In this document: positions 2,229 to 31,925 of the stretch, piece by piece
Position numbering within the stretch: position 1 is the stretch's first letter
How the letters are laid out: the number at the start of each line of letters is the position of its first letter
From: Candidatus Latescibacterota bacterium
GTDB taxonomy: Bacteria > Latescibacterota > UBA2968 > GCA-2709665
NCBI GenBank assembly: GCA_965203805.1
Contig: OZ241917.1
Span: forward strand, 1,088,001-1,152,000
Length of the DNA: 64,000 nucleotides
Direction of reading: 5' to 3'
Notes under the pieces: generated by a model
What the model saw: only the letters and a program-made list of their open reading frames with translations
The model's database searches: none
Told to the model about the DNA's origin: nothing
Position numbers and translations under genes: made by a program

Positions 2229-4169
<1,941 letters not shown>

Positions 4170-26842: not shown

Positions 26843-27154
26843 ATGGCAACGATCACCAAGGCTTCTCTGGCGCGTTATCTTTCGGACAACATCGGCCATC
26901 CCAAAACCAAAGCCTTAGAAGCCGTCGACGTCCTGTTCGAAGCCATGACGTCCTCCATCTGCAATGGAAAGCGAATTGAGATCCGTGGTTTTGGCTCCTG
27001 GGAAGTGAAGGAAACAAAGGAAAAGACCCAGGCGCGCAATCCCAGCACCGGGGAAACGGTTTACGTGCCCGCGCGTCGCAAAGTCATGTTCAAACCCGGT
27101 AAGATTCTGAAAAAGGTGCTTTCCCAGTCCCTGGAATCCGGAGCATCGAAGTAG
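26843..27154 (+). CDS. HU/IHF family DNA-binding protein
   Basis: IEIRGFGSW, ARNPSTGE, VPARRKVMFKPGK. Confidence 0.93.
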   Translation: MATITKASLARYLSDNIGHPKTKALEAVDVLFEAMTSSICNGKRIEIRGFGSWEVKETKEKTQARNPSTGETVYVPARRKVMFKPGKILKKVLSQSLESGASK

Positions 27155-27183: not shown

Positions 27184-27990
27184 ATGCGATGGCGTGAAAA
27201 GCTGAACCGGTTTCAGACCGACGGTCCGAACAGGCTCCTGGTGGTCAGCGACTGGGACAGAACGCTGACGCGAGCCACGGCGGAGGACGGCAGAGATCAG
27301 TCTACATGTTCGGTCATTGCGAACAGCGGGCATCTCGGACCGGCCTTCGGACGTCGTTACCGGGAGTTGTTTGACCGCTATCGCGGAATCGAACGCGCGT
27401 CGGATCTACCACGGCACGAGAAGTTGCCCCACCTGCGTCAGTGGTGGACCCGCCAGTTCGATCTGCTGCTCGAATACAAACTCAACGTTCGAATCATTCA
27501 TCGGATTGTCAGCGAAAAACGGCCGCGCCTCCGAGAAGGTGCGCGCCGTTTTTTTTGTCGCCTTCACGACTGCGGCATACCCCTGATCATTCTGTCCGCG
27601 GGCATCAGGCAGATCATCGAAGCCCGGCTCGCCGCTATTGGCGTACCCACCGCAAATGTCGTCATCATCGCCAATGTACTCGACTTCGACACGAAAGGCG
27701 ATGCGGTGGCGTACCATATGCCGCTCATCCACAGCCTGAACAAGACCGGGGCCGGCGCCGAAGCGTTCCCCGGACGCCGGAATCTGCTTCTCCTGGGCGA
27801 CACGCTTGAAGATATCAACATGGCGGCGGGCATCAGCCACGAAAGCCTGCTCAGCTTCGCCTTTCCCGTCGATTTCGACCACATTGAAGACTTTCGTTCC
27901 TTATACGACGTGGTACTCACTCCGGAAGCCTCACTGGAGCCTGTGAATGCAGTCCTGAACGACATATGCGCGCCGTCTCGCCGGCATTGA
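27184..27990 (+). CDS. HAD hydrolase, pyrimidine 5'-nucleotidase (UMPH-1/cN-III)-like
   Basis: VVSDWDRTLT, WW cap motif, ILSAGI, IIAN, IHSLNK, LLLGDTLED. Confidence 0.8.
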   Translation: MRWREKLNRFQTDGPNRLLVVSDWDRTLTRATAEDGRDQSTCSVIANSGHLGPAFGRRYRELFDRYRGIERASDLPRHEKLPHLRQWWTRQFDLLLEYKLNVRIIHRIVSEKRPRLREGARRFFCRLHDCGIPLIILSAGIRQIIEARLAAIGVPTANVVIIANVLDFDTKGDAVAYHMPLIHSLNKTGAGAEAFPGRRNLLLLGDTLEDINMAAGISHESLLSFAFPVDFDHIEDFRSLYDVVLTPEASLEPVNAVLNDICAPSRRH

Positions 27991-28231
27991 CCGGGCGCGA
28001 CGGGCGTCAAGGTTGACGGCCGGTCTCCCGGACCGGGACGGATGCGCGTGCATCCGCCCGCGTGTAGATATGCGGACCGTTCAACGCGCGTCCTGTTGAT
28101 GCGTCAACGGAACCCGGACGGGCCATGGCGCGTGGCCTGTCCCGCGAAGGAAAGGAGGCGAATCATGAAGGAGATGAATACGCGGAGGGTGGCCGGCCGA
28201 TAAGGACGGCCGACATTCCTTCAGAAAGTCG

Positions 28232-28266
28232 AACCGGGCGCCCCGCAAAAGGGGCGCCCGGTTTTT
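28232..28266. terminator. intrinsic terminator
   Basis: AACCGGGCGCCCC-gcaaaa-GGGGCGCCCGGTTTTT. Confidence 0.85.
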
Positions 28267-28292: not shown

Positions 28293-29660
28293 CTATTCCA
28301 TTCTCATCGGCATCAGAATCGCCTTCCGGTCGGGATGATCCGTGCAGACAAACAGGAGAGCCTTCAGAGGGTCGGTAAAGAAAATGTCCAGCTCTCCATC
28401 GGCCTCGAGCCCGGACACCACGTCGACAAGCAACCCGTGATTAACACCAGTCCTGAATGGGTCCGGACTTCCTTCCAGGTTTACCTGGCCGTCCACCGTG
28501 ATCGCGAACCTCCAGTACGGAACACCGGCCCAGGGGGCATCATCGTTTGAGACCGGAGAACCGGCTTTCTCTTTGGAGACATTATATCCCATGTCTCTCG
28601 ACGTGATCAGTGAAAGCGTCCCGGTTGTCTCGGCAAACTGAATTTCAACTTGCGGCATATACGTCCAGTCATCGGAAACCGGATGGCGAGGTTCCAGATG
28701 CTCTTGGATCAGATCAATTGCTCGCAGCAATTCGCCTGCAGCCAACCTGACGTGAATGCCCGACGCGTTGGGAACAACCGCTTCGTAGTTTACATAGGGC
28801 TCGTCGATAATCGGAATTTTTCGTTTCTCCTCGCCATCGATGCATAGCTCCGCCACCGTCTCGTGGATGGAAATCGTGGCGCGTTCCGCGCCTCGTTTTT
28901 CCAATACGAAACCCGGCCCCAGGAGCACCTGCGACTCCAGGTCCTCTGTGCCTTCAAGTGTGCGCAGCAACAACCTTGCGCCGTCGCCTGAGACGATGCG
29001 TCCGCCCGAATCCAGGCAGACTCCGCAGAGTTTAAGGCGGGATTCGTCGTTGCTCACTAACCGGGTCGCCCAGTGGAGGGCGCTGAGATCCTGTGCGGTA
29101 AGATCGTAGGTTTCTGCGATTCCTGTCATCTCGCTCATCTCCTTTCGGATCCGCTGCCTCGCCTTCTGCAGGCGGCTGCGGACCGTGTTCAATTCGAGGC
29201 CCAGTTGGCTGGCCGTTTCCTTGTAGGAATGGCCCCTGATATAGTGATATTCGATCACGTCCCGATGGGCTCTAGAAAGCCGGCGAATCGCCTGTCTGAT
29301 CATCATCCGAGCTTCCCGCTCCGCCTCCGAATCGTCAACTGCAAGTTCCCGCCATTCCTCGGTCAACAGACGTTCGAATCGAACCTGAACCATCCGTCGC
29401 CGGTACCACTTTCCGGCCGTGTTTTCCGCAATTGTCGAAAGCCACGGGGAAAACCGGCTTGCATCCCGAAGTTGACCCAGGCGCCGAAACGCCTGCAGGA
29501 ATACCTCCTGCGCCAGGTCTTCGGCGTCGTCCGGTTGCCTGACGATTCGGCGGATTCTCGCGAAAACCAGGCCGCCGTGGCGCTCGACGAGGCAGCCGAA
29601 CGCCCATGTCTGTCCTGAACCTGCAAGCCGGACCAGGTCCCGGTCCTCAAGTGGTTCCAA
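28293..29660 (-). CDS. ECF sigma-70 factor fused to beta-clamp (DnaN)-like domains II-III
   Basis: sigma2 DAEDLAQEVFL/FSPWL and sigma4 SYKETA...TVRSRLQKAR; C-terminal SGDGARL, YVNYEAVVP, ILMPMR. Confidence 0.85.
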   Translation of the reverse strand: MEPLEDRDLVRLAGSGQTWAFGCLVERHGGLVFARIRRIVRQPDDAEDLAQEVFLQAFRRLGQLRDASRFSPWLSTIAENTAGKWYRRRMVQVRFERLLTEEWRELAVDDSEAEREARMMIRQAIRRLSRAHRDVIEYHYIRGHSYKETASQLGLELNTVRSRLQKARQRIRKEMSEMTGIAETYDLTAQDLSALHWATRLVSNDESRLKLCGVCLDSGGRIVSGDGARLLLRTLEGTEDLESQVLLGPGFVLEKRGAERATISIHETVAELCIDGEEKRKIPIIDEPYVNYEAVVPNASGIHVRLAAGELLRAIDLIQEHLEPRHPVSDDWTYMPQVEIQFAETTGTLSLITSRDMGYNVSKEKAGSPVSNDDAPWAGVPYWRFAITVDGQVNLEGSPDPFRTGVNHGLLVDVVSGLEADGELDIFFTDPLKALLFVCTDHPDRKAILMPMRME

Positions 29661-29846
29661 ATGACGCCCCCCTGCAGGTGTGAAACATCACGCACGCGAC
29701 ATGAATACAGATACCCGGCGTGACGGAAAGTATCCTGCGGAAGAAAAAAATCCCGGCGCCACACCTGCTCGCGTTCCTCAAACAAAAAAGCCACCCGATA
29801 CGGGCGGCAGCTTGCCAGATGCATAATGAAAACGAAACGACGACCG

Positions 29847-31925
29847 TCACAACGCGACCGCGAGGCTGCTGACGGGACCCTTTACGCCGGCGCTGTTGAA
29901 AGATCGCACCCGCAGGGTGTTCAGCCCGCGGTTCAGATGCCAGTCGAAGGCCTCGGGGCACGATGTCCACGCCTCCCGGTCCATGCTGGACAGAAATCCC
30001 GAGAAACAGGGCGTCTGCGTCTCCAGGCTGACCCTCAGCAAGGCAGCGCTTCGCGTTGTCTCCACCGTGTACCGGGTCTGGTTCATCGACGGATAGAAGT
30101 CCGAACGCCGGTTCGTGTGACGCGAGAAGTGCGGCAACGGCGGCACGTTGTCATCGGCCCAGTTGAGATACCCGTCCCACGCCCAGACCTCCGTGCCCTG
30201 ACTCACCGGAAGCGGCCGCGACTGGCTGAACACGTTGCCGCGCGGAATCATCCGGAAGTGGCAGAAGGAACGGAACAGAAAGTGCGCGCCGTCGGTTGTG
30301 GAAAACTCGTGGCGGCCTTCCCGAATCCCGATCGGCAGGTCGCGAACCAGGGTTTCCAGGTCCTGCCGGAACAGATACGGACGATCCCAGCGTTCGACGT
30401 CCTCGAGCCTGTCCACGAGGACCCGGTGCACCTCGAGCGTATCCAGCGGCACACGCGTTTCCGGATCGTACCAGTAGAAATCCCGCGTGGCGTCAAGATG
30501 GACCCACTTGCCATAATCGTTCGACCAGACCTCCGCAATCTCGTGTCCGGTCATGCCTTCGCTGTGAAAGTTCACATGACGCGCCGGGAAGCCGAAGCTC
30601 AGACACGCGACCACGAGCGCCACGTTCGGATACAGGCACATCTTGTCGCGCCGCCGTTCCCTGTACCGATTCATCACAATCGCGCCCGATTCGTCCCGCT
30701 CGAGCACCAGCCAGTCCAGGACGTTCCAGGGATAGTGCCGGCACGCGCCCAGCGGAACGGCATACGCCCACGCCATCAGACGCTCGATGGCCTCGAATTC
30801 CGTCTGTGCCCCGGCGACAACGGCATCCAGTTCGAACCGTTCGCGCAGTTCGCGCAAGGTGGCGTGGTTGTAGTCTTCGTCCGCGGTCCAGTAAGAAGAC
30901 CGCCGGATGGCCGCGTTCTCGGCGCGGACGACCCGGGGCGGCGCATCTCCTTCCGGGCGCACGTCGGCCATGACACGCATCGCCTTCAGGACGGGCGTAC
31001 GGGCAGCGTGGGACGTCTGTAACCGCATCCGCCACTGAAGGTAACGTCCCTGCAGGCGCGTTACCCTTGACCCGGGGTCACACGACTGCCATTCGCTCCA
31101 GCCCGCCCCGTTCACAACCGGGCCGGCCCCTGTGCGTACCTCACAGCCGACAGCAGTTCCGCCGGGGACGTCCGCGTCCCAATCCAAACGCAACTCACGA
31201 ATGGATTGGCGCCGTTTCACGCCTTCGCGTTCGCCCGCGGCATCGATGACCGGCGACACGACAACCCCTTCGTCGCGGTACCCGTCCACGATCAGCCGGA
31301 TCACGTATTCGCCGCGTTCGGGCTCCCAATCGCCGTTTCGACGCGTACGACTCGACGCGGGCAGCACGACCGGGTCCGCCGATCCCTTATCAAAGTCCCG
31401 GTAATCCGCCACCATCAGGCTCCATCCCACCCTCCCGCCGGCCACGTCGACAACCAGATGGTTGTCGCCCTGCCGCAGACATCCCGGCGGAAGTTCCAAG
31501 TAATACCACCGGCTCCAGCTCCACGCGCCTTCATCGGGCGCCAACTCCCAGTACTGCCGGGCGTCGGGGGTCGCCAGCGGGGACGGCGGCCGCAGCGCCT
31601 CCCGTCCGTTGACGTTGAATCGCAATGTGGCCGAATGGCCCCGCCGCTCCCTTGCGATAAAAGCGACCTGTGCCTTCCCGGGAGGACGCTGCGCCAACGT
31701 CAGTGTCTTCTTCAGCGCCACGCGGCCGGATAATGCCAGGAACGGATCCTCGTCCAGGTCGTCCGACCTTCCGGCGCCGGGGCTGTCGTTCTCCGCCACC
31801 GAACCTCTGAAAAGGCGGATCCCGTCTTCTTCGTCCCCCATCCAGAGATCCGTAACGTCCGAGGCGCCGTAGATCTCTCGCGCGGGAAAGCGGGTCTCGA
31901 TCCGCTTGTATCCCTCGTCAGCCAT
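29847..31925 (-). CDS. transglutaminase-like domain protein
   Basis: C-terminal MC...GFPARHV...GHEIAEVWSNDYGKWVHLDAT (Cys-His-Asp arrangement). Confidence 0.7.
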   Translation of the reverse strand: MADEGYKRIETRFPAREIYGASDVTDLWMGDEEDGIRLFRGSVAENDSPGAGRSDDLDEDPFLALSGRVALKKTLTLAQRPPGKAQVAFIARERRGHSATLRFNVNGREALRPPSPLATPDARQYWELAPDEGAWSWSRWYYLELPPGCLRQGDNHLVVDVAGGRVGWSLMVADYRDFDKGSADPVVLPASSRTRRNGDWEPERGEYVIRLIVDGYRDEGVVVSPVIDAAGEREGVKRRQSIRELRLDWDADVPGGTAVGCEVRTGAGPVVNGAGWSEWQSCDPGSRVTRLQGRYLQWRMRLQTSHAARTPVLKAMRVMADVRPEGDAPPRVVRAENAAIRRSSYWTADEDYNHATLRELRERFELDAVVAGAQTEFEAIERLMAWAYAVPLGACRHYPWNVLDWLVLERDESGAIVMNRYRERRRDKMCLYPNVALVVACLSFGFPARHVNFHSEGMTGHEIAEVWSNDYGKWVHLDATRDFYWYDPETRVPLDTLEVHRVLVDRLEDVERWDRPYLFRQDLETLVRDLPIGIREGRHEFSTTDGAHFLFRSFCHFRMIPRGNVFSQSRPLPVSQGTEVWAWDGYLNWADDNVPPLPHFSRHTNRRSDFYPSMNQTRYTVETTRSAALLRVSLETQTPCFSGFLSSMDREAWTSCPEAFDWHLNRGLNTLRVRSFNSAGVKGPVSSLAVAL

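What the first reader, a model, noticed from the sequence alone, without database searches (positions are those of the whole stretch)
28293..29660. ECF sigma factor fused to beta-sliding-clamp domains II and III
Seen: after a complete sigma2-sigma4 ECF core (~175 aa), the C-terminal ~270 aa follow DnaN motifs in order: NDESRLKLCGV (cf. QDVRYYLNGM), VSGDGARL (VATDGHRL), DEPYVNYEAVVP (DGRFPDYRRVLP), GVNHGLLVDVV (GFNVSYVLDVL) and terminal ILMPMR (VVMPMRL). Domain I is absent and no anti-sigma gene is adjacent. Known: these motifs line the pocket between domains II and III that binds QL[S/D]LF peptides and griselimycin-type antibiotics; MerR-clamp fusions exist in Actinobacteria. Inference: a one-component sigma factor that uses a non-ring clamp pocket to sense clamp-binding proteins, replication stress or clamp-targeting compounds. 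I do not know of a characterised example.
Basis: partly seen in the sequence, partly recalled or inferred. Interest (0 to 1): 0.8.

Follow-up and report, generated by a model that had tools for sequence, protein, structure and literature searches.

The report
Sigma factor fused to clamp fragment
This gene encodes an alternative sigma factor permanently joined to two of the three domains of the DNA sliding clamp, with the clamp's peptide-binding pocket kept intact, a combination that appears undescribed and may link gene control to the replication machinery.

Summary
Window 28293-29660 (-) is one 455-aa ORF: an ECF sigma core (sigma2 and sigma4, residues 1-177) joined by a short junction to a 278-aa module homologous to DnaN domains II+III. 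Support: family profile vs PDB hits only beta clamps (best E 3.9e-15); hhalign 99.8%; AF2 pLDDT 89.7; VIA Z 24.1 onto E. coli beta 120-366. Domain I is absent, the genome has a separate genuine dnaN, and no anti-sigma gene is adjacent.

The fusion is one gene in 30 of 30 loci read, is monophyletic (SH-aLRT 99), is widespread in Gemmatimonadota, and occurs in one Gammaproteobacteria MAG contig.

New here:
- Clamp pocket residues are selectively kept (15 of 18 vs 54 of 209 elsewhere), while the hydrophobic ring interface is lost.
- The sigma2-sigma4 linker carries a clamp-binding-motif-like Q-phi-x-Phi element in 21 of 21 fused and 0 of 114 nearest unfused ECFs.
- A conserved ECF-type promoter precedes the gene.
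- A conserved AGGAG plus ATG at the junction suggests an internal start.

Best reading: a one-component ECF whose clamp-derived extension binds a clamp-binding-type peptide, most likely its own linker. That binding is inferred; the complex prediction gave only weak support. The regulon and the signal are unknown. New variant of a known kind.

The parts
29790..29808 (-). Intrinsic terminator of the upstream 692-aa gene (stem GCCGCCCGTATCGGGTGGC followed by a T run). It makes the sigma-clamp gene its own transcription unit.
   Evidence: 8 pairs, 7 of them GC, T tract. Conserved in the genus alignment.
29699..29735 (-). Candidate autoregulated ECF-type promoter: GGATACTTT (29735-29727), 14 nt, ATCTGTATTCATGT (29712-29699), 73-75 nt before the start codon.
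   Evidence: Present in 13 of 14 genus loci at a fixed distance. At 0-1 mismatch it is found in 14 of 15 genus genomes and only next to this gene. The strict form occurs once in the 5.87-Mb genome. GGATAC(T/C)T or a close variant is seen upstream of distant orthologues (read by eye). No sigma70-type match in the region. Transcription from it is inferred.
29658..29660 (-). TTG start codon, preceded by a G-rich SD-like run (GGGGGG here, GGAGG in orthologues).
   Evidence: Orthologues start at the same position with ATG, GTG or TTG.
29394..29591 (-). Sigma region 2 (residues 24-89).
   Evidence: Pfam PF04542, E 1.4e-14.
29364..29387 (-). Linker motif Q92-L99 (QVRFERLL), the window's version of the family-wide Q-phi-x-Phi clamp-binding-motif-like element that follows the RRR of region 2.4.
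   Evidence: Present in 21 of 21 fused and 0 of 114 nearest unfused ECFs. The linker has low confidence in the AF2 model (pLDDT below 50 for residues 91-110).
29148..29306 (-). Sigma region 4 (residues 119-171).
   Evidence: Pfam PF08281, E 1e-12.
29127..29144 (-). Candidate internal ribosome-binding site AAGGAG (29144-29139), 9 nt, then ATG of Met178 (29129-29127) at the sigma4/clamp junction.
   Evidence: SD-like hexamer 9-11 nt before a conserved ATG in 21 of 21 family loci, although the encoded residues differ (KE, EE, KGE, KGA). Also present in the distant L075 locus. Genome baseline is 103 of 18,913 internal ATGs (0.54%). Use as a start codon is not shown.
28755..29114 (-). Clamp-like domain equivalent to DnaN domain II (residues about 183-302). 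Contains pocket residues R208, L211, G225, G227, A228, R229, L230, V290, A294 and V295.
28296..28754 (-). Clamp-like domain equivalent to DnaN domain III (residues about 303-455), with an insertion of about 25 aa and family-specific conserved residues (RHP 325-327, W332, Y334, T353, R355, G358, Y359, W383, F385). Contains pocket residues N407, L410, L432, I448, M450, P451, M452 and R453. The stop codon is at 28293-28295.

Best explanation
The gene encodes a functional, autoregulated ECF sigma factor of the 'one-component' type. Its regulatory C-terminal extension is a domesticated fragment of the replicative sliding clamp (DnaN domains II+III).

Shown:
- It is a single conserved ORF.
- The clamp fold and its homology to DnaN.
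- Loss of domain I and of the hydrophobic ring interface.
- Selective retention of the clamp's peptide-binding pocket.
- A clamp-binding-motif-like element in the sigma2-sigma4 linker that is specific to the fused clade.
- A conserved ECF-type promoter in front of the gene.

Inferred: the pocket binds a clamp-binding-type peptide, most likely the protein's own linker in cis. In known ECF holoenzymes that linker must thread through RNA polymerase (recalled from published structures). A linker held in the pocket would keep sigma2 and sigma4 in an inactive or altered arrangement. Release of the linker would switch the sigma factor on, and it would then amplify its own transcription. Release could come from competition with cellular clamp-binding proteins, from the real clamp taking the linker, or from another signal.

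The signal and the regulon are unknown.
For: Identity:
- Pfam and NCBIfam sigma domains.
- The C-terminal family profile hits 54 of 54 beta-clamp sequences in PDB, best E 3.9e-15, in two collinear blocks.
- hhalign gives probability 99.8% onto E. coli beta 125-366.
- AF2 pLDDT 89.7. Foldseek returns only clamps. VIA gives Z 24.1 onto residues 120-366.

One gene:
- 30 of 30 loci give one HSP spanning the sigma and clamp parts; one of them, L021, has a TAG.
- 36 of 36 divergent representatives carry sigma2 and sigma4.
- The fused clamp parts are one clade, SH-aLRT 99.

Pocket:
- 15 of 18 published pocket positions are identical between the fused-family consensus and the Gemmatimonadota DnaN consensus, against 54 of 209 other aligned positions (Fisher p 2e-6).
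- Window protein against its own DnaN: 12 of 18 against 43 of 209 (p 8e-5).
- Across 36 divergent representatives, N320 is kept in 33, P363 in 34 and M362 in 30.

Not a ring: I272/L273 are E/D and H/F.

Linker:
- Q[ILVM]x[LFM] is present in 21 of 21 fused and 0 of 114 nearest unfused ECFs.
- Divergent members read QLKLF, QMELF, QLSLSF, QLDLL and QLNLL.

Complex prediction of the clamp part with linker residues 80-125 gave weak support:
- Score 0.50, best control 0.02.
- The mark was reached by 58 of 80 solved complexes and 2 of 110 mismatched pairs.
- At 0.60 or under it was reached by only 7 of those 80 and by both passing mismatches.
- The runs agree in at least 64% of contacts, and the partner's pLDDT is at least 44.
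- My own alignments were used, so these counts hold only roughly.
- Many clamp-peptide complexes are solved, so the pass may be from memory.

Promoter.

No anti-sigma gene in 16 loci.

Precedent (main text of PMC7826278, passages read): C-terminal extensions are the second most common ECF regulatory mode and correlate with the lack of anti-sigma factors.
Against: - No binding was measured.
- The full-length AF2 model does not dock the linker or fix the domains: pTM 0.57, and pLDDT below 50 at residues 91-110, 112-114 and 176-181.
- Only 17 of 52 linker motifs fit a strict full clamp-binding pattern. In most Gemmatimonadota members, positions 5-6 are acidic (QLRLEE, QIRFER).
- AF2 draws the stretch as a helix, whereas known motifs bind extended.
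- The window's own pocket departs from the family consensus at two positions: G225 for T172 and L410 for Y323.
- Pocket conservation could partly reflect fold constraints.
- The fused proteins are a single clade, so '21 of 21 against 0 of 114' is one evolutionary event, not 21.
- No regulon was found. The relaxed promoter scan gave 9 hits against 4 in the reversed-genome control.
- The neighbours show no replication or repair theme.
Confidence: 0.5

Rival explanations
1. Trans sensing or tethering. The pocket binds clamp-binding motifs of other proteins (polymerases, repair factors, an unlinked anti-sigma-like partner) or pocket-directed small molecules. Sigma activity then reports on free clamp partners or replication stress, or the sigma factor recruits such partners to promoters.
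For: The pocket is selectively conserved and nearly the same as in the lineage's own DnaN, including the lineage-specific V at P242 and A/H at H175. The same proteins that bind DnaN could therefore bind it. No adjacent anti-sigma gene.
Against: No candidate partner is linked in any of the 16 loci read. It does not explain the clade-specific motif in the sigma factor's own linker. No replication or repair genes were found near the gene or behind matching promoters.
Confidence: 0.2
2. Two products from one gene. Besides the full-length fusion, translation starts at the conserved junction ATG (Met178) and yields a free 278-aa clamp-like protein. This protein acts in trans, for example as an anti-sigma-like antagonist that captures the linker motif, or as a decoy for clamp partners. 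This is compatible with the main explanation.
For: AAGGAG or GAGGAG lies 9-11 nt before a conserved ATG in 21 of 21 loci (the 5-mer AGGAG in 20 of 21), although the encoded residues differ (KE, EE, KGE, KGA). The same is seen in the distant L075 locus with a 6-nt spacer. The genome-wide baseline for internal in-frame ATGs is 103 of 18,913. GGA is a minority Gly codon here (0.20) yet is used where Gly is encoded. The full-length start in the window is a weak TTG. Gene callers produced clamp-only proteins starting at this Met: P0010, P0024 and P0031 and about 12 of the 27 short representatives (counted by eye).
Against: K-E and E-E are encoded as AAGGAG and GAGGAG by the commoner codons (AAG 0.59, GAG 0.47), so part of the signal follows from conserved residues. 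The loci are kin. No protein or ribosome-profiling data exist, and no RNA run is listed. The one genomic locus I could read for a clamp-only group (L075) has the complete fused frame.
Confidence: 0.2
3. The linker motif binds the genuine DnaN ring, so that the sigma factor is parked on DNA-loaded clamps or released from them. The fused clamp fragment then competes as a mimic.
For: Several linkers are canonical-looking motifs (QLKLF, QMELF, QLSLSF). Every genome examined keeps one genuine dnaN (25 of 25).
Against: Nothing distinguishes binding to DnaN from binding to the fused pocket. Most Gemmatimonadota linkers are only partly motif-like. No test was run.
Confidence: 0.08
4. The clamp fragment is a structural or DNA-contacting module without peptide binding (for example touching DNA upstream of the -35 element), or it self-assembles into a PCNA-like trimer of two-domain units.
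For: The junction to sigma4 is short (sigma4 ends near residue 175 and the first clamp strand begins at residue 183). This would place the module near upstream DNA. A family-specific conserved surface (RHP, W332/Y334, TSRDMGY, W383/F385) replaces the old ring interface and could be a new interface.
Against: It does not explain why the pocket is the best-conserved part or the clade-specific linker motif. The hydrophobic interface residues are lost. Oligomers were not tested.
Confidence: 0.07

Closest known systems
ECF sigma factors with fused C-terminal regulatory extensions (ECF41 and ECF56 with SnoaL-like, ECF42 with TPR, ECF238 with Cys-rich extensions), as summarised in PMC7826278 (passages read) and PMC3426412 (listing only)
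   Same: A sigma2-sigma4 core followed by an extension of more than 50 aa. No anti-sigma gene nearby. The sigma core forms its own clade together with its type of extension. Control is probably intramolecular. From recall, ECF41 also pairs a conserved linker motif with its extension.
   Different: The extension is a two-domain beta-clamp fragment, a fold not mentioned for any ECF group in the main texts I searched. It brings a ready-made peptide-binding pocket, and the linker carries a motif of the kind that pocket binds. Pfam sees the clamp part in only 2-3 of 36 members at E below 0.001, so domain-based surveys would label it as having no domain.
Bacterial beta sliding clamp DnaN (TIGR00663; E. 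coli beta, PDB 1MMI/2POL and others)
   Same: The fold of domains II and III (Z 24.1). Collinear homology over E. coli residues about 125-366. Pocket residues R152, L155, G174, R176, L177, V247, N320, M362, P363 and R365 are retained.
   Different: No domain I. The interface pair I272/L273 is replaced by E/D and H/F. There is an insertion of about 25 aa and new conserved motifs in domain III. It scores 10.1 bits against the DnaN model cut-off of 137.65. It is fused to a sigma factor, and the genome keeps a separate genuine dnaN.
Class I anti-sigma factors (separate proteins that hold sigma2 and sigma4)
   Same: The proposed logic is the same: the sigma factor is held in an inactive arrangement until a signal releases it.
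   Different: Here the holder would be part of the same polypeptide (or made from the same gene by an internal start). It would grip a short linear motif in the linker rather than wrap the sigma domains. There is no homology.

Membership tests
ECF (group IV) sigma-70 family | Sigma region 2 and region 4 present, regions 1.1 and 3 absent | tested here: met
   PF04542 at residues 24-89 (E 1.4e-14) and PF08281 at residues 119-171 (E 1e-12). No other sigma region was hit. TIGR02937 scores 94.6 bits against a cut-off of 42.9. The best PDB matches are ECF sigma factors.
ECF (group IV) sigma-70 family | Bipartite ECF-type promoter, often autoregulatory | tested here: inconclusive
   A conserved GGATACTTT-N14-ATCTGTA lies upstream of the gene across the genus, with variants across the class. 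The likeness to GGAAC...(C)GTC/TCTGA-type promoters is recalled. No transcription data.
ECF (group IV) sigma-70 family | Assignment to a numbered ECF group | not testable with these tools
   The ECF Hub models are not available. The nearest unfused ECFs are at most 41% identical. The supplements of PMC7826278 are closed.
Beta sliding clamp DnaN (TIGR00663) | Three homologous domains I-II-III in one chain | tested here: not met
   Only domains II and III are present. The alignment starts at E. coli residue 120-132.
Beta sliding clamp DnaN (TIGR00663) | Score above the family model's cut-off | tested here: not met
   10.1 bits against a cut-off of 137.65. The genuine dnaN of the same genome scores 245.9 bits.
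Beta sliding clamp DnaN (TIGR00663) | Head-to-tail ring interface (hydrophobic I272/L273 on domain III) | tested here: not met
   E143/H144 in the window. In the family: E 12, D 8 and H 13, F 5 of 22. The alignment in this stretch is less certain than in the pocket blocks.
Beta sliding clamp DnaN (TIGR00663) | Clamp-binding-motif pocket between domains II and III | tested here: met
   Met by sequence conservation only: 15 of 18 pocket positions are identical to the lineage's DnaN consensus. The residue list is from PMC11139829. Binding was not measured.
ECF sigma factors with regulatory C-terminal extensions | Extension of more than 50 aa fused after sigma4, with no anti-sigma gene nearby | tested here: met
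   A 278-aa extension. No anti-sigma-like neighbour in 16 loci.
ECF sigma factors with regulatory C-terminal extensions | Extension of one of the described types (SnoaL-like, TPR, Cys-rich, DUF1835, transmembrane) | tested here: not met
   The extension is a clamp fold. None of those domains was hit in Pfam.
ECF sigma factors with regulatory C-terminal extensions | The extension controls sigma activity | not testable with these tools
   Only indirect evidence: the clade-specific linker motif and a weak complex prediction.

The most novel reading that the evidence does not exclude
A fragment of the replicative clamp has been domesticated as a built-in anti-sigma module. The clamp pocket holds a clamp-binding motif in the sigma factor's own linker. 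Free clamp-like protein made from the internal start adds a second, trans layer. Activity is set by competition with the cell's pool of clamp-binding proteins or free DnaN. This would be a direct transcriptional read-out of replisome or clamp occupancy, a kind of coupling between replication and sigma-factor control that has not been described.
Probability: 0.15. Interest if true: 0.88.

Novelty: new variant of a known kind. Interest (0 to 1): 0.72.

Why it matters
ECF sigma factors with fused regulatory domains are a recognised but little-understood class. This would add a new type of extension with a well-understood ligand logic: a pocket that binds short linear motifs. That makes the mechanism directly testable with peptides, pocket mutants and existing clamp ligands.

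It is also a rare case of a core replication protein fragment being reused outside replication, as a non-ring, peptide-binding module. It offers a possible route by which replication status could feed into transcription.

On the practical side, Pfam detects the clamp part in only 2-3 of 36 members. Architecture surveys therefore probably list these proteins as sigma factors with an unannotated tail, and a dedicated model would fix that. The family has 46 clusters at 50% identity with E at or below 1e-30 in the 1.84-billion-protein library, with more beyond that threshold.

Tried and rejected
Regulon from the promoter motif:
- The strict motif occurs once in the genome.
- With up to 3 mismatches, hits away from the sigma gene are at the level of the reversed-pattern control.
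- A relaxed, class-wide pattern gave 9 hits against 4 in the reversed genome.
- No regulon could be read.

Genomic context: neighbours are conserved only within genera. They are a transglutaminase-like protein, UMPH-1 nucleotidase and HU in the window's family, and PhyH dioxygenases, sulfatases, DHDPS, an MFS transporter and aminotransferases elsewhere. There is no theme.

Donor of the clamp part: the fused clade attaches on a long stem deep in the DnaN tree, not inside the Gemmatimonadota DnaN clade. The family consensus shares more residues with Gemmatimonadota DnaN (69) than with E. coli (47). The donor is unresolved.

Full-length AF2 gave no confident domain packing.

Co-variation of linker class and pocket: the 'QP' linker class carries T/C/M at the G174 position in 7 of 8 and Q at the R365 position in 6 of 8, against 0 of 26 with Q among the remaining representatives once P0241 (also Q) and P0220, which resemble the QP class, are set apart. 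The class is probably one clade, so I do not count this as evidence.

Expression: no RNA holder is listed.

A small downstream ORF (55 aa, 28081-28248, minus strand) was considered as a possible anti-sigma. It was rejected because its matches split between reading frames in most genus loci.

Clamp-only homologues: I could read only one relevant genomic locus (L075), and it is fused. The other 22 loci are weaker matches. The 11 I translated were 10 genuine DnaN genes, mostly Rhodothermales, and one short DnaN-like frame (L086). Whether any truly separate clamp-only gene exists remains open.

Literature: no paper in the library holds ECF + sigma factor + C-terminal extension + sliding clamp. The 12 listed papers with 'extracytoplasmic function' + DnaN are unrelated by title and abstract. 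The main texts of PMC7826278 and PMC8999054 contain no 'clamp', 'DnaN' or 'polymerase III'. The supplements of PMC7826278, which describe each ECF group, are closed and could bear on the novelty claim. The MerR-clamp statement is unverified.
Full report
**What is there.** Window 28293-29660 (minus strand) is a single 455-aa ORF starting with TTG. Residues 24-89 and 119-171 match sigma regions 2 and 4 (E 1.4e-14 and 1e-12). The ECF superfamily model TIGR02937 scores 94.6 bits against a cut-off of 42.9. The best matches among solved structures are ECF sigma factors. Taken alone, the remaining 278 residues (P0002) give only faint hits, all to beta clamps: PF02768 at E 0.14, and four PDB clamp sequences at E 0.021-0.7 over the last 55-60 residues.

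**Homology of the C-terminal part.** I collected relatives and aligned the C-terminal parts only.
- One search returned 47 proteins, 42 of them with sigma Pfam domains and lengths mostly 453-455 aa.
- A genome survey gave further loci.
- Alignment A2 holds 22 rows. Two rows, P0046 and P0049, carried extra N-terminal residues that fall outside the profile.
- The profile hits 54 distinct PDB sequences, every one a beta sliding clamp, best E 3.9e-15. The hits fall in two collinear blocks: profile 6-141 onto clamp residues about 127-270, and profile 217-280 onto about 307-367.
- hhalign of this family against an alignment of E. coli DnaN plus 13 Gemmatimonadota DnaNs gives probability 99.8% (E 1.5e-26, global) and 99.3% (E 1.7e-20, local). 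It is collinear from E. coli residue about 125-132 to 366, with one insertion of about 25 residues in domain III.
- The AF2 model of the part is confident (pLDDT 89.7, pTM 0.88).
- Every one of the 35 Foldseek matches listed is a bacterial clamp (E about 1e-14, TM 0.63-0.73 on the query length and 0.81 on a 248-residue clamp chain).
- VIA-align superposes model residues 1-277 on E. coli beta 120-366 with Z 24.1 and rmsd 2.7 A over 235 residues.

The genome has one genuine dnaN elsewhere (245.9 bits), whereas the fused part scores 10.1 bits on the same model. All 25 genomes tested have one genuine dnaN.

**One gene, and how widespread.**
- In 30 of 30 loci from relatives' genomes, tblastn with the whole protein gives one HSP running from the sigma N-terminus to the clamp C-terminus. 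One of them, L021, has an in-frame TAG.
- In the phylum survey, 72 of 168 genomes had a match at E up to 0.001. Seven of those are only weak or partial hits. Five of the seven (E about 4e-4, to query residues 18-140) are probably the genuine DnaN. That leaves 65 genomes with E at or below 2e-23. The window's genus is 14 of 14.
- The window's genome holds a single copy.
- The profile search of the 1.84-billion-protein library found 46 cluster representatives at E at or below 1e-30 and 1,023 at or below 1e-10, the latter dominated by DnaN.
- I selected 34 representatives of 403-494 aa (434-494 aa for all but two) with a sigma-like N-terminus, out of 48 hits of at least 400 aa. With the window protein and L075 added, all 36 carry Sigma70_r2 and Sigma70_r4_2. 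Only 2 reach E below 0.001 for DNA_pol3_beta_3 and 1 for beta_2.
- One homologue lies on a 4,140-bp contig of a MAG titled Gammaproteobacteria, as a single 454-aa open frame. Such a short contig could be mis-binned.
- Source names and the ESM Atlas point to Gemmatimonadota for the core family.
- In a tree of 102 domain II-III sequences, the 45 fused ones form one side of a branch (SH-aLRT 99). Their attachment within DnaN is deep and on a long stem, so a single origin is supported but the donor lineage is not resolved.

**Pocket kept, ring interface lost.** I used the pocket residue lists in the review PMC11139829 (section 11, passages read) and mapped them through the hhalign alignment.
- In the 22-row family: R152 is R in 21, L155 is L in 21, G174 is G in 22, L177 is L in 16 and M in 5, V247 is V in 21, N320 is N in 21, M362 is M in 21, P363 is P in 22 and R365 is R in 22.
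- Lineage-specific states of the Gemmatimonadota DnaN are shared (V at P242, A or H at H175).
- Consensus against consensus, 15 of 18 pocket positions are identical, against 54 of 209 other aligned positions (Fisher p 2e-6).
- For the window protein against its own DnaN the figures are 12 of 18 against 43 of 209 (p 8e-5).
- Conservation holds in the 36 divergent representatives.
- By contrast, the hydrophobic pair I272/L273 that stabilises the ring interface is E or D and H or F. The surrounding region has acquired family-specific invariant residues (RHP, W, Y, TSRDMGY, W.F).
- I infer a monomeric, non-ring module with a working peptide pocket. The oligomeric state was not tested.

**A clamp-binding-motif-like element in the sigma factor's own linker.** Directly after the RRR of region 2.4, all fused proteins have an invariant Gln followed by a hydrophobic pattern.
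- The window reads QVRFERLL. Most of the window's genus reads QIRFE(R/Q)LL. Other genera read QLRLGEAL and QLRLEETF. The more distant family reads QLDLLERF and QLNLLDQL.
- Divergent representatives read QLSLSF, QMELF, QLDLV, QLSLD, QLTLI, QETLPL and QPLLLSL, and L075 reads QLKLF.
- The consensus motifs given in the review are QL[S/D]LF/QLxLF and Q-phi-x-[L/M]-x-[F/L].
- I compared 21 fused proteins with 114 of the nearest unfused ECFs. The 21 came from 22 chosen loci; L022 failed to extract. The 114 came from the 120 listed hits; I dropped the three family fragments, P0061 and two proteins under 165 aa. The pattern Q[ILVM]x[LFM] is in the linker of 21 of 21 fused and 0 of 114 unfused proteins.
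- In 52 fused sequences, position 1 is Q in all (by selection of the column), position 2 is L/P/V/I/M in 46, and position 4 is L/F/W/Y in 51. Only 17 fit a strict full-motif pattern, because positions 5-6 are often acidic.
- The nearest unfused ECFs are at most 41% identical, so the sigma core is its own clade.
- The one complex job, clamp part against linker residues 80-125, returned weak support. The score was 0.50 (runs 0.52, 0.41, 0.50) with a best control of 0.02. The mark was reached by 58 of 80 solved complexes and 2 of 110 mismatched pairs, but at 0.60 or under by only 7 of those 80 and by both passing mismatches. The runs agree in at least 64% of contacts, and the partner's pLDDT is at least 44. 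My own alignments were used, so these counts hold only roughly.
- Because many clamp-peptide complexes are solved, this may show likeness rather than binding.
- The full-length AF2 model leaves the linker and the junction at low confidence and has pTM 0.57.

**Transcription unit and promoter.**
- The upstream 692-aa gene ends in a strong intrinsic terminator at 29808-29790.
- Then comes a bipartite motif, GGATACTTT-N14-ATCTGTATTCATGT (29735-29699). It is present at 73-75 nt from the start in 13 of 14 genus loci.
- At 0-1 mismatch it is found in 14 of 15 genus genomes, each time beside this gene. Weaker hits equal the reversed-pattern control.
- Upstream of distant orthologues I read, by eye in the printed sequences, GGATAC(T/C)T or GAGATACTT in 11 of 20 distinct loci, GACACTTT in 8 (one genus), and nothing in 1. 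Each is followed about 14-16 nt later by (A/G)TC(T/A).
- No sigma70-type promoter is matched in the region.
- The resemblance to RpoE-type ECF promoters is recalled, not tested.
- I infer positive autoregulation. No further targets could be found.
- Context gives no anti-sigma gene and no functional theme.

**Internal start.**
- The Met at the sigma4/clamp junction (Met178) is conserved, and AAGGAG or GAGGAG lies 9-11 nt upstream in 21 of 21 loci (the 5-mer AGGAG in 20). This holds although the encoded residues vary (K-E, E-E, K-G-E, K-G-A). L075 has AAGGAG six nt upstream.
- In this genome only 103 of 18,913 internal in-frame ATGs in ORFs of at least 400 aa have AGGAG at -16..-6.
- AAG and GAG are the commoner or near-equal codons (0.59, 0.47), so part of this follows from the residues. 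GGA (0.20) does not.
- Gene callers have produced clamp-only proteins that begin at this Met.
- A second product is plausible but unproven.
The gapped alignment corrects it.

**Verdict.** The most likely mechanism is a one-component ECF whose clamp-derived extension binds a clamp-binding-type peptide, probably its own linker. I put about 0.95 on the identity and about 0.5 on 'the pocket binds a motif-type peptide and thereby controls the sigma factor'. Within that, roughly two thirds goes to the cis version. I found no description of such an extension in the searchable literature.

Noticed in passing
window 28052-28265 (+ strand), between the convergent 3' ends of the UMPH-1 nucleotidase gene and the sigma-clamp gene: A block of about 190 nt that is nearly invariant in the 12 of 12 genus loci I aligned, better conserved than the flanking coding sequence. 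On the + strand it has several hairpins, a perfect SD (AAAGGAGG), an ATG, a 12-codon mini-ORF (MKEMNTRRVAGR in the window) and a GC-rich terminator shared bidirectionally with the sigma-clamp gene. Rfam gives only chance-level hits. RNAalifold predicts 58 pairs, 4 of them with compensatory changes. It is single-copy in the genome and was not seen beside the fusion in other genera. It may be a small RNA or a small-protein gene.
   Followed up: partly
window 26843-27154 (+) and 27184-27990 (+): An HU/IHF-type DNA-binding protein gene followed by a UMPH-1-type pyrimidine 5'-nucleotidase gene, convergent with the sigma-clamp gene. This pair stays near the fusion in the window's taxonomic family (nucleotidase in 6 and HU in 5 of 16 loci) but not beyond it.
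   Followed up: partly
L086 (Gemmatimonadaceae MAG), open frame 2243-3073: A short DnaN-like open frame (277 aa, with a VATDGHRL-type motif) that is neither a full DnaN nor the sigma fusion. It may be another kind of truncated clamp paralogue.
   Followed up: no
L049 5182-7086 and L039 10151-10969: Additional sigma-like ORFs lie close to the sigma-clamp gene in two relatives: 634 aa directly downstream in L049, and 272 aa upstream in L039. The 634-aa one may carry a different long extension.
   Followed up: no
window 29847-31925 (-): A 692-aa protein with only a weak transglutaminase-core match (E 7e-4, below the Pfam cut-off). It is conserved upstream of the fusion within the genus and is otherwise uncharacterised.
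   Followed up: no
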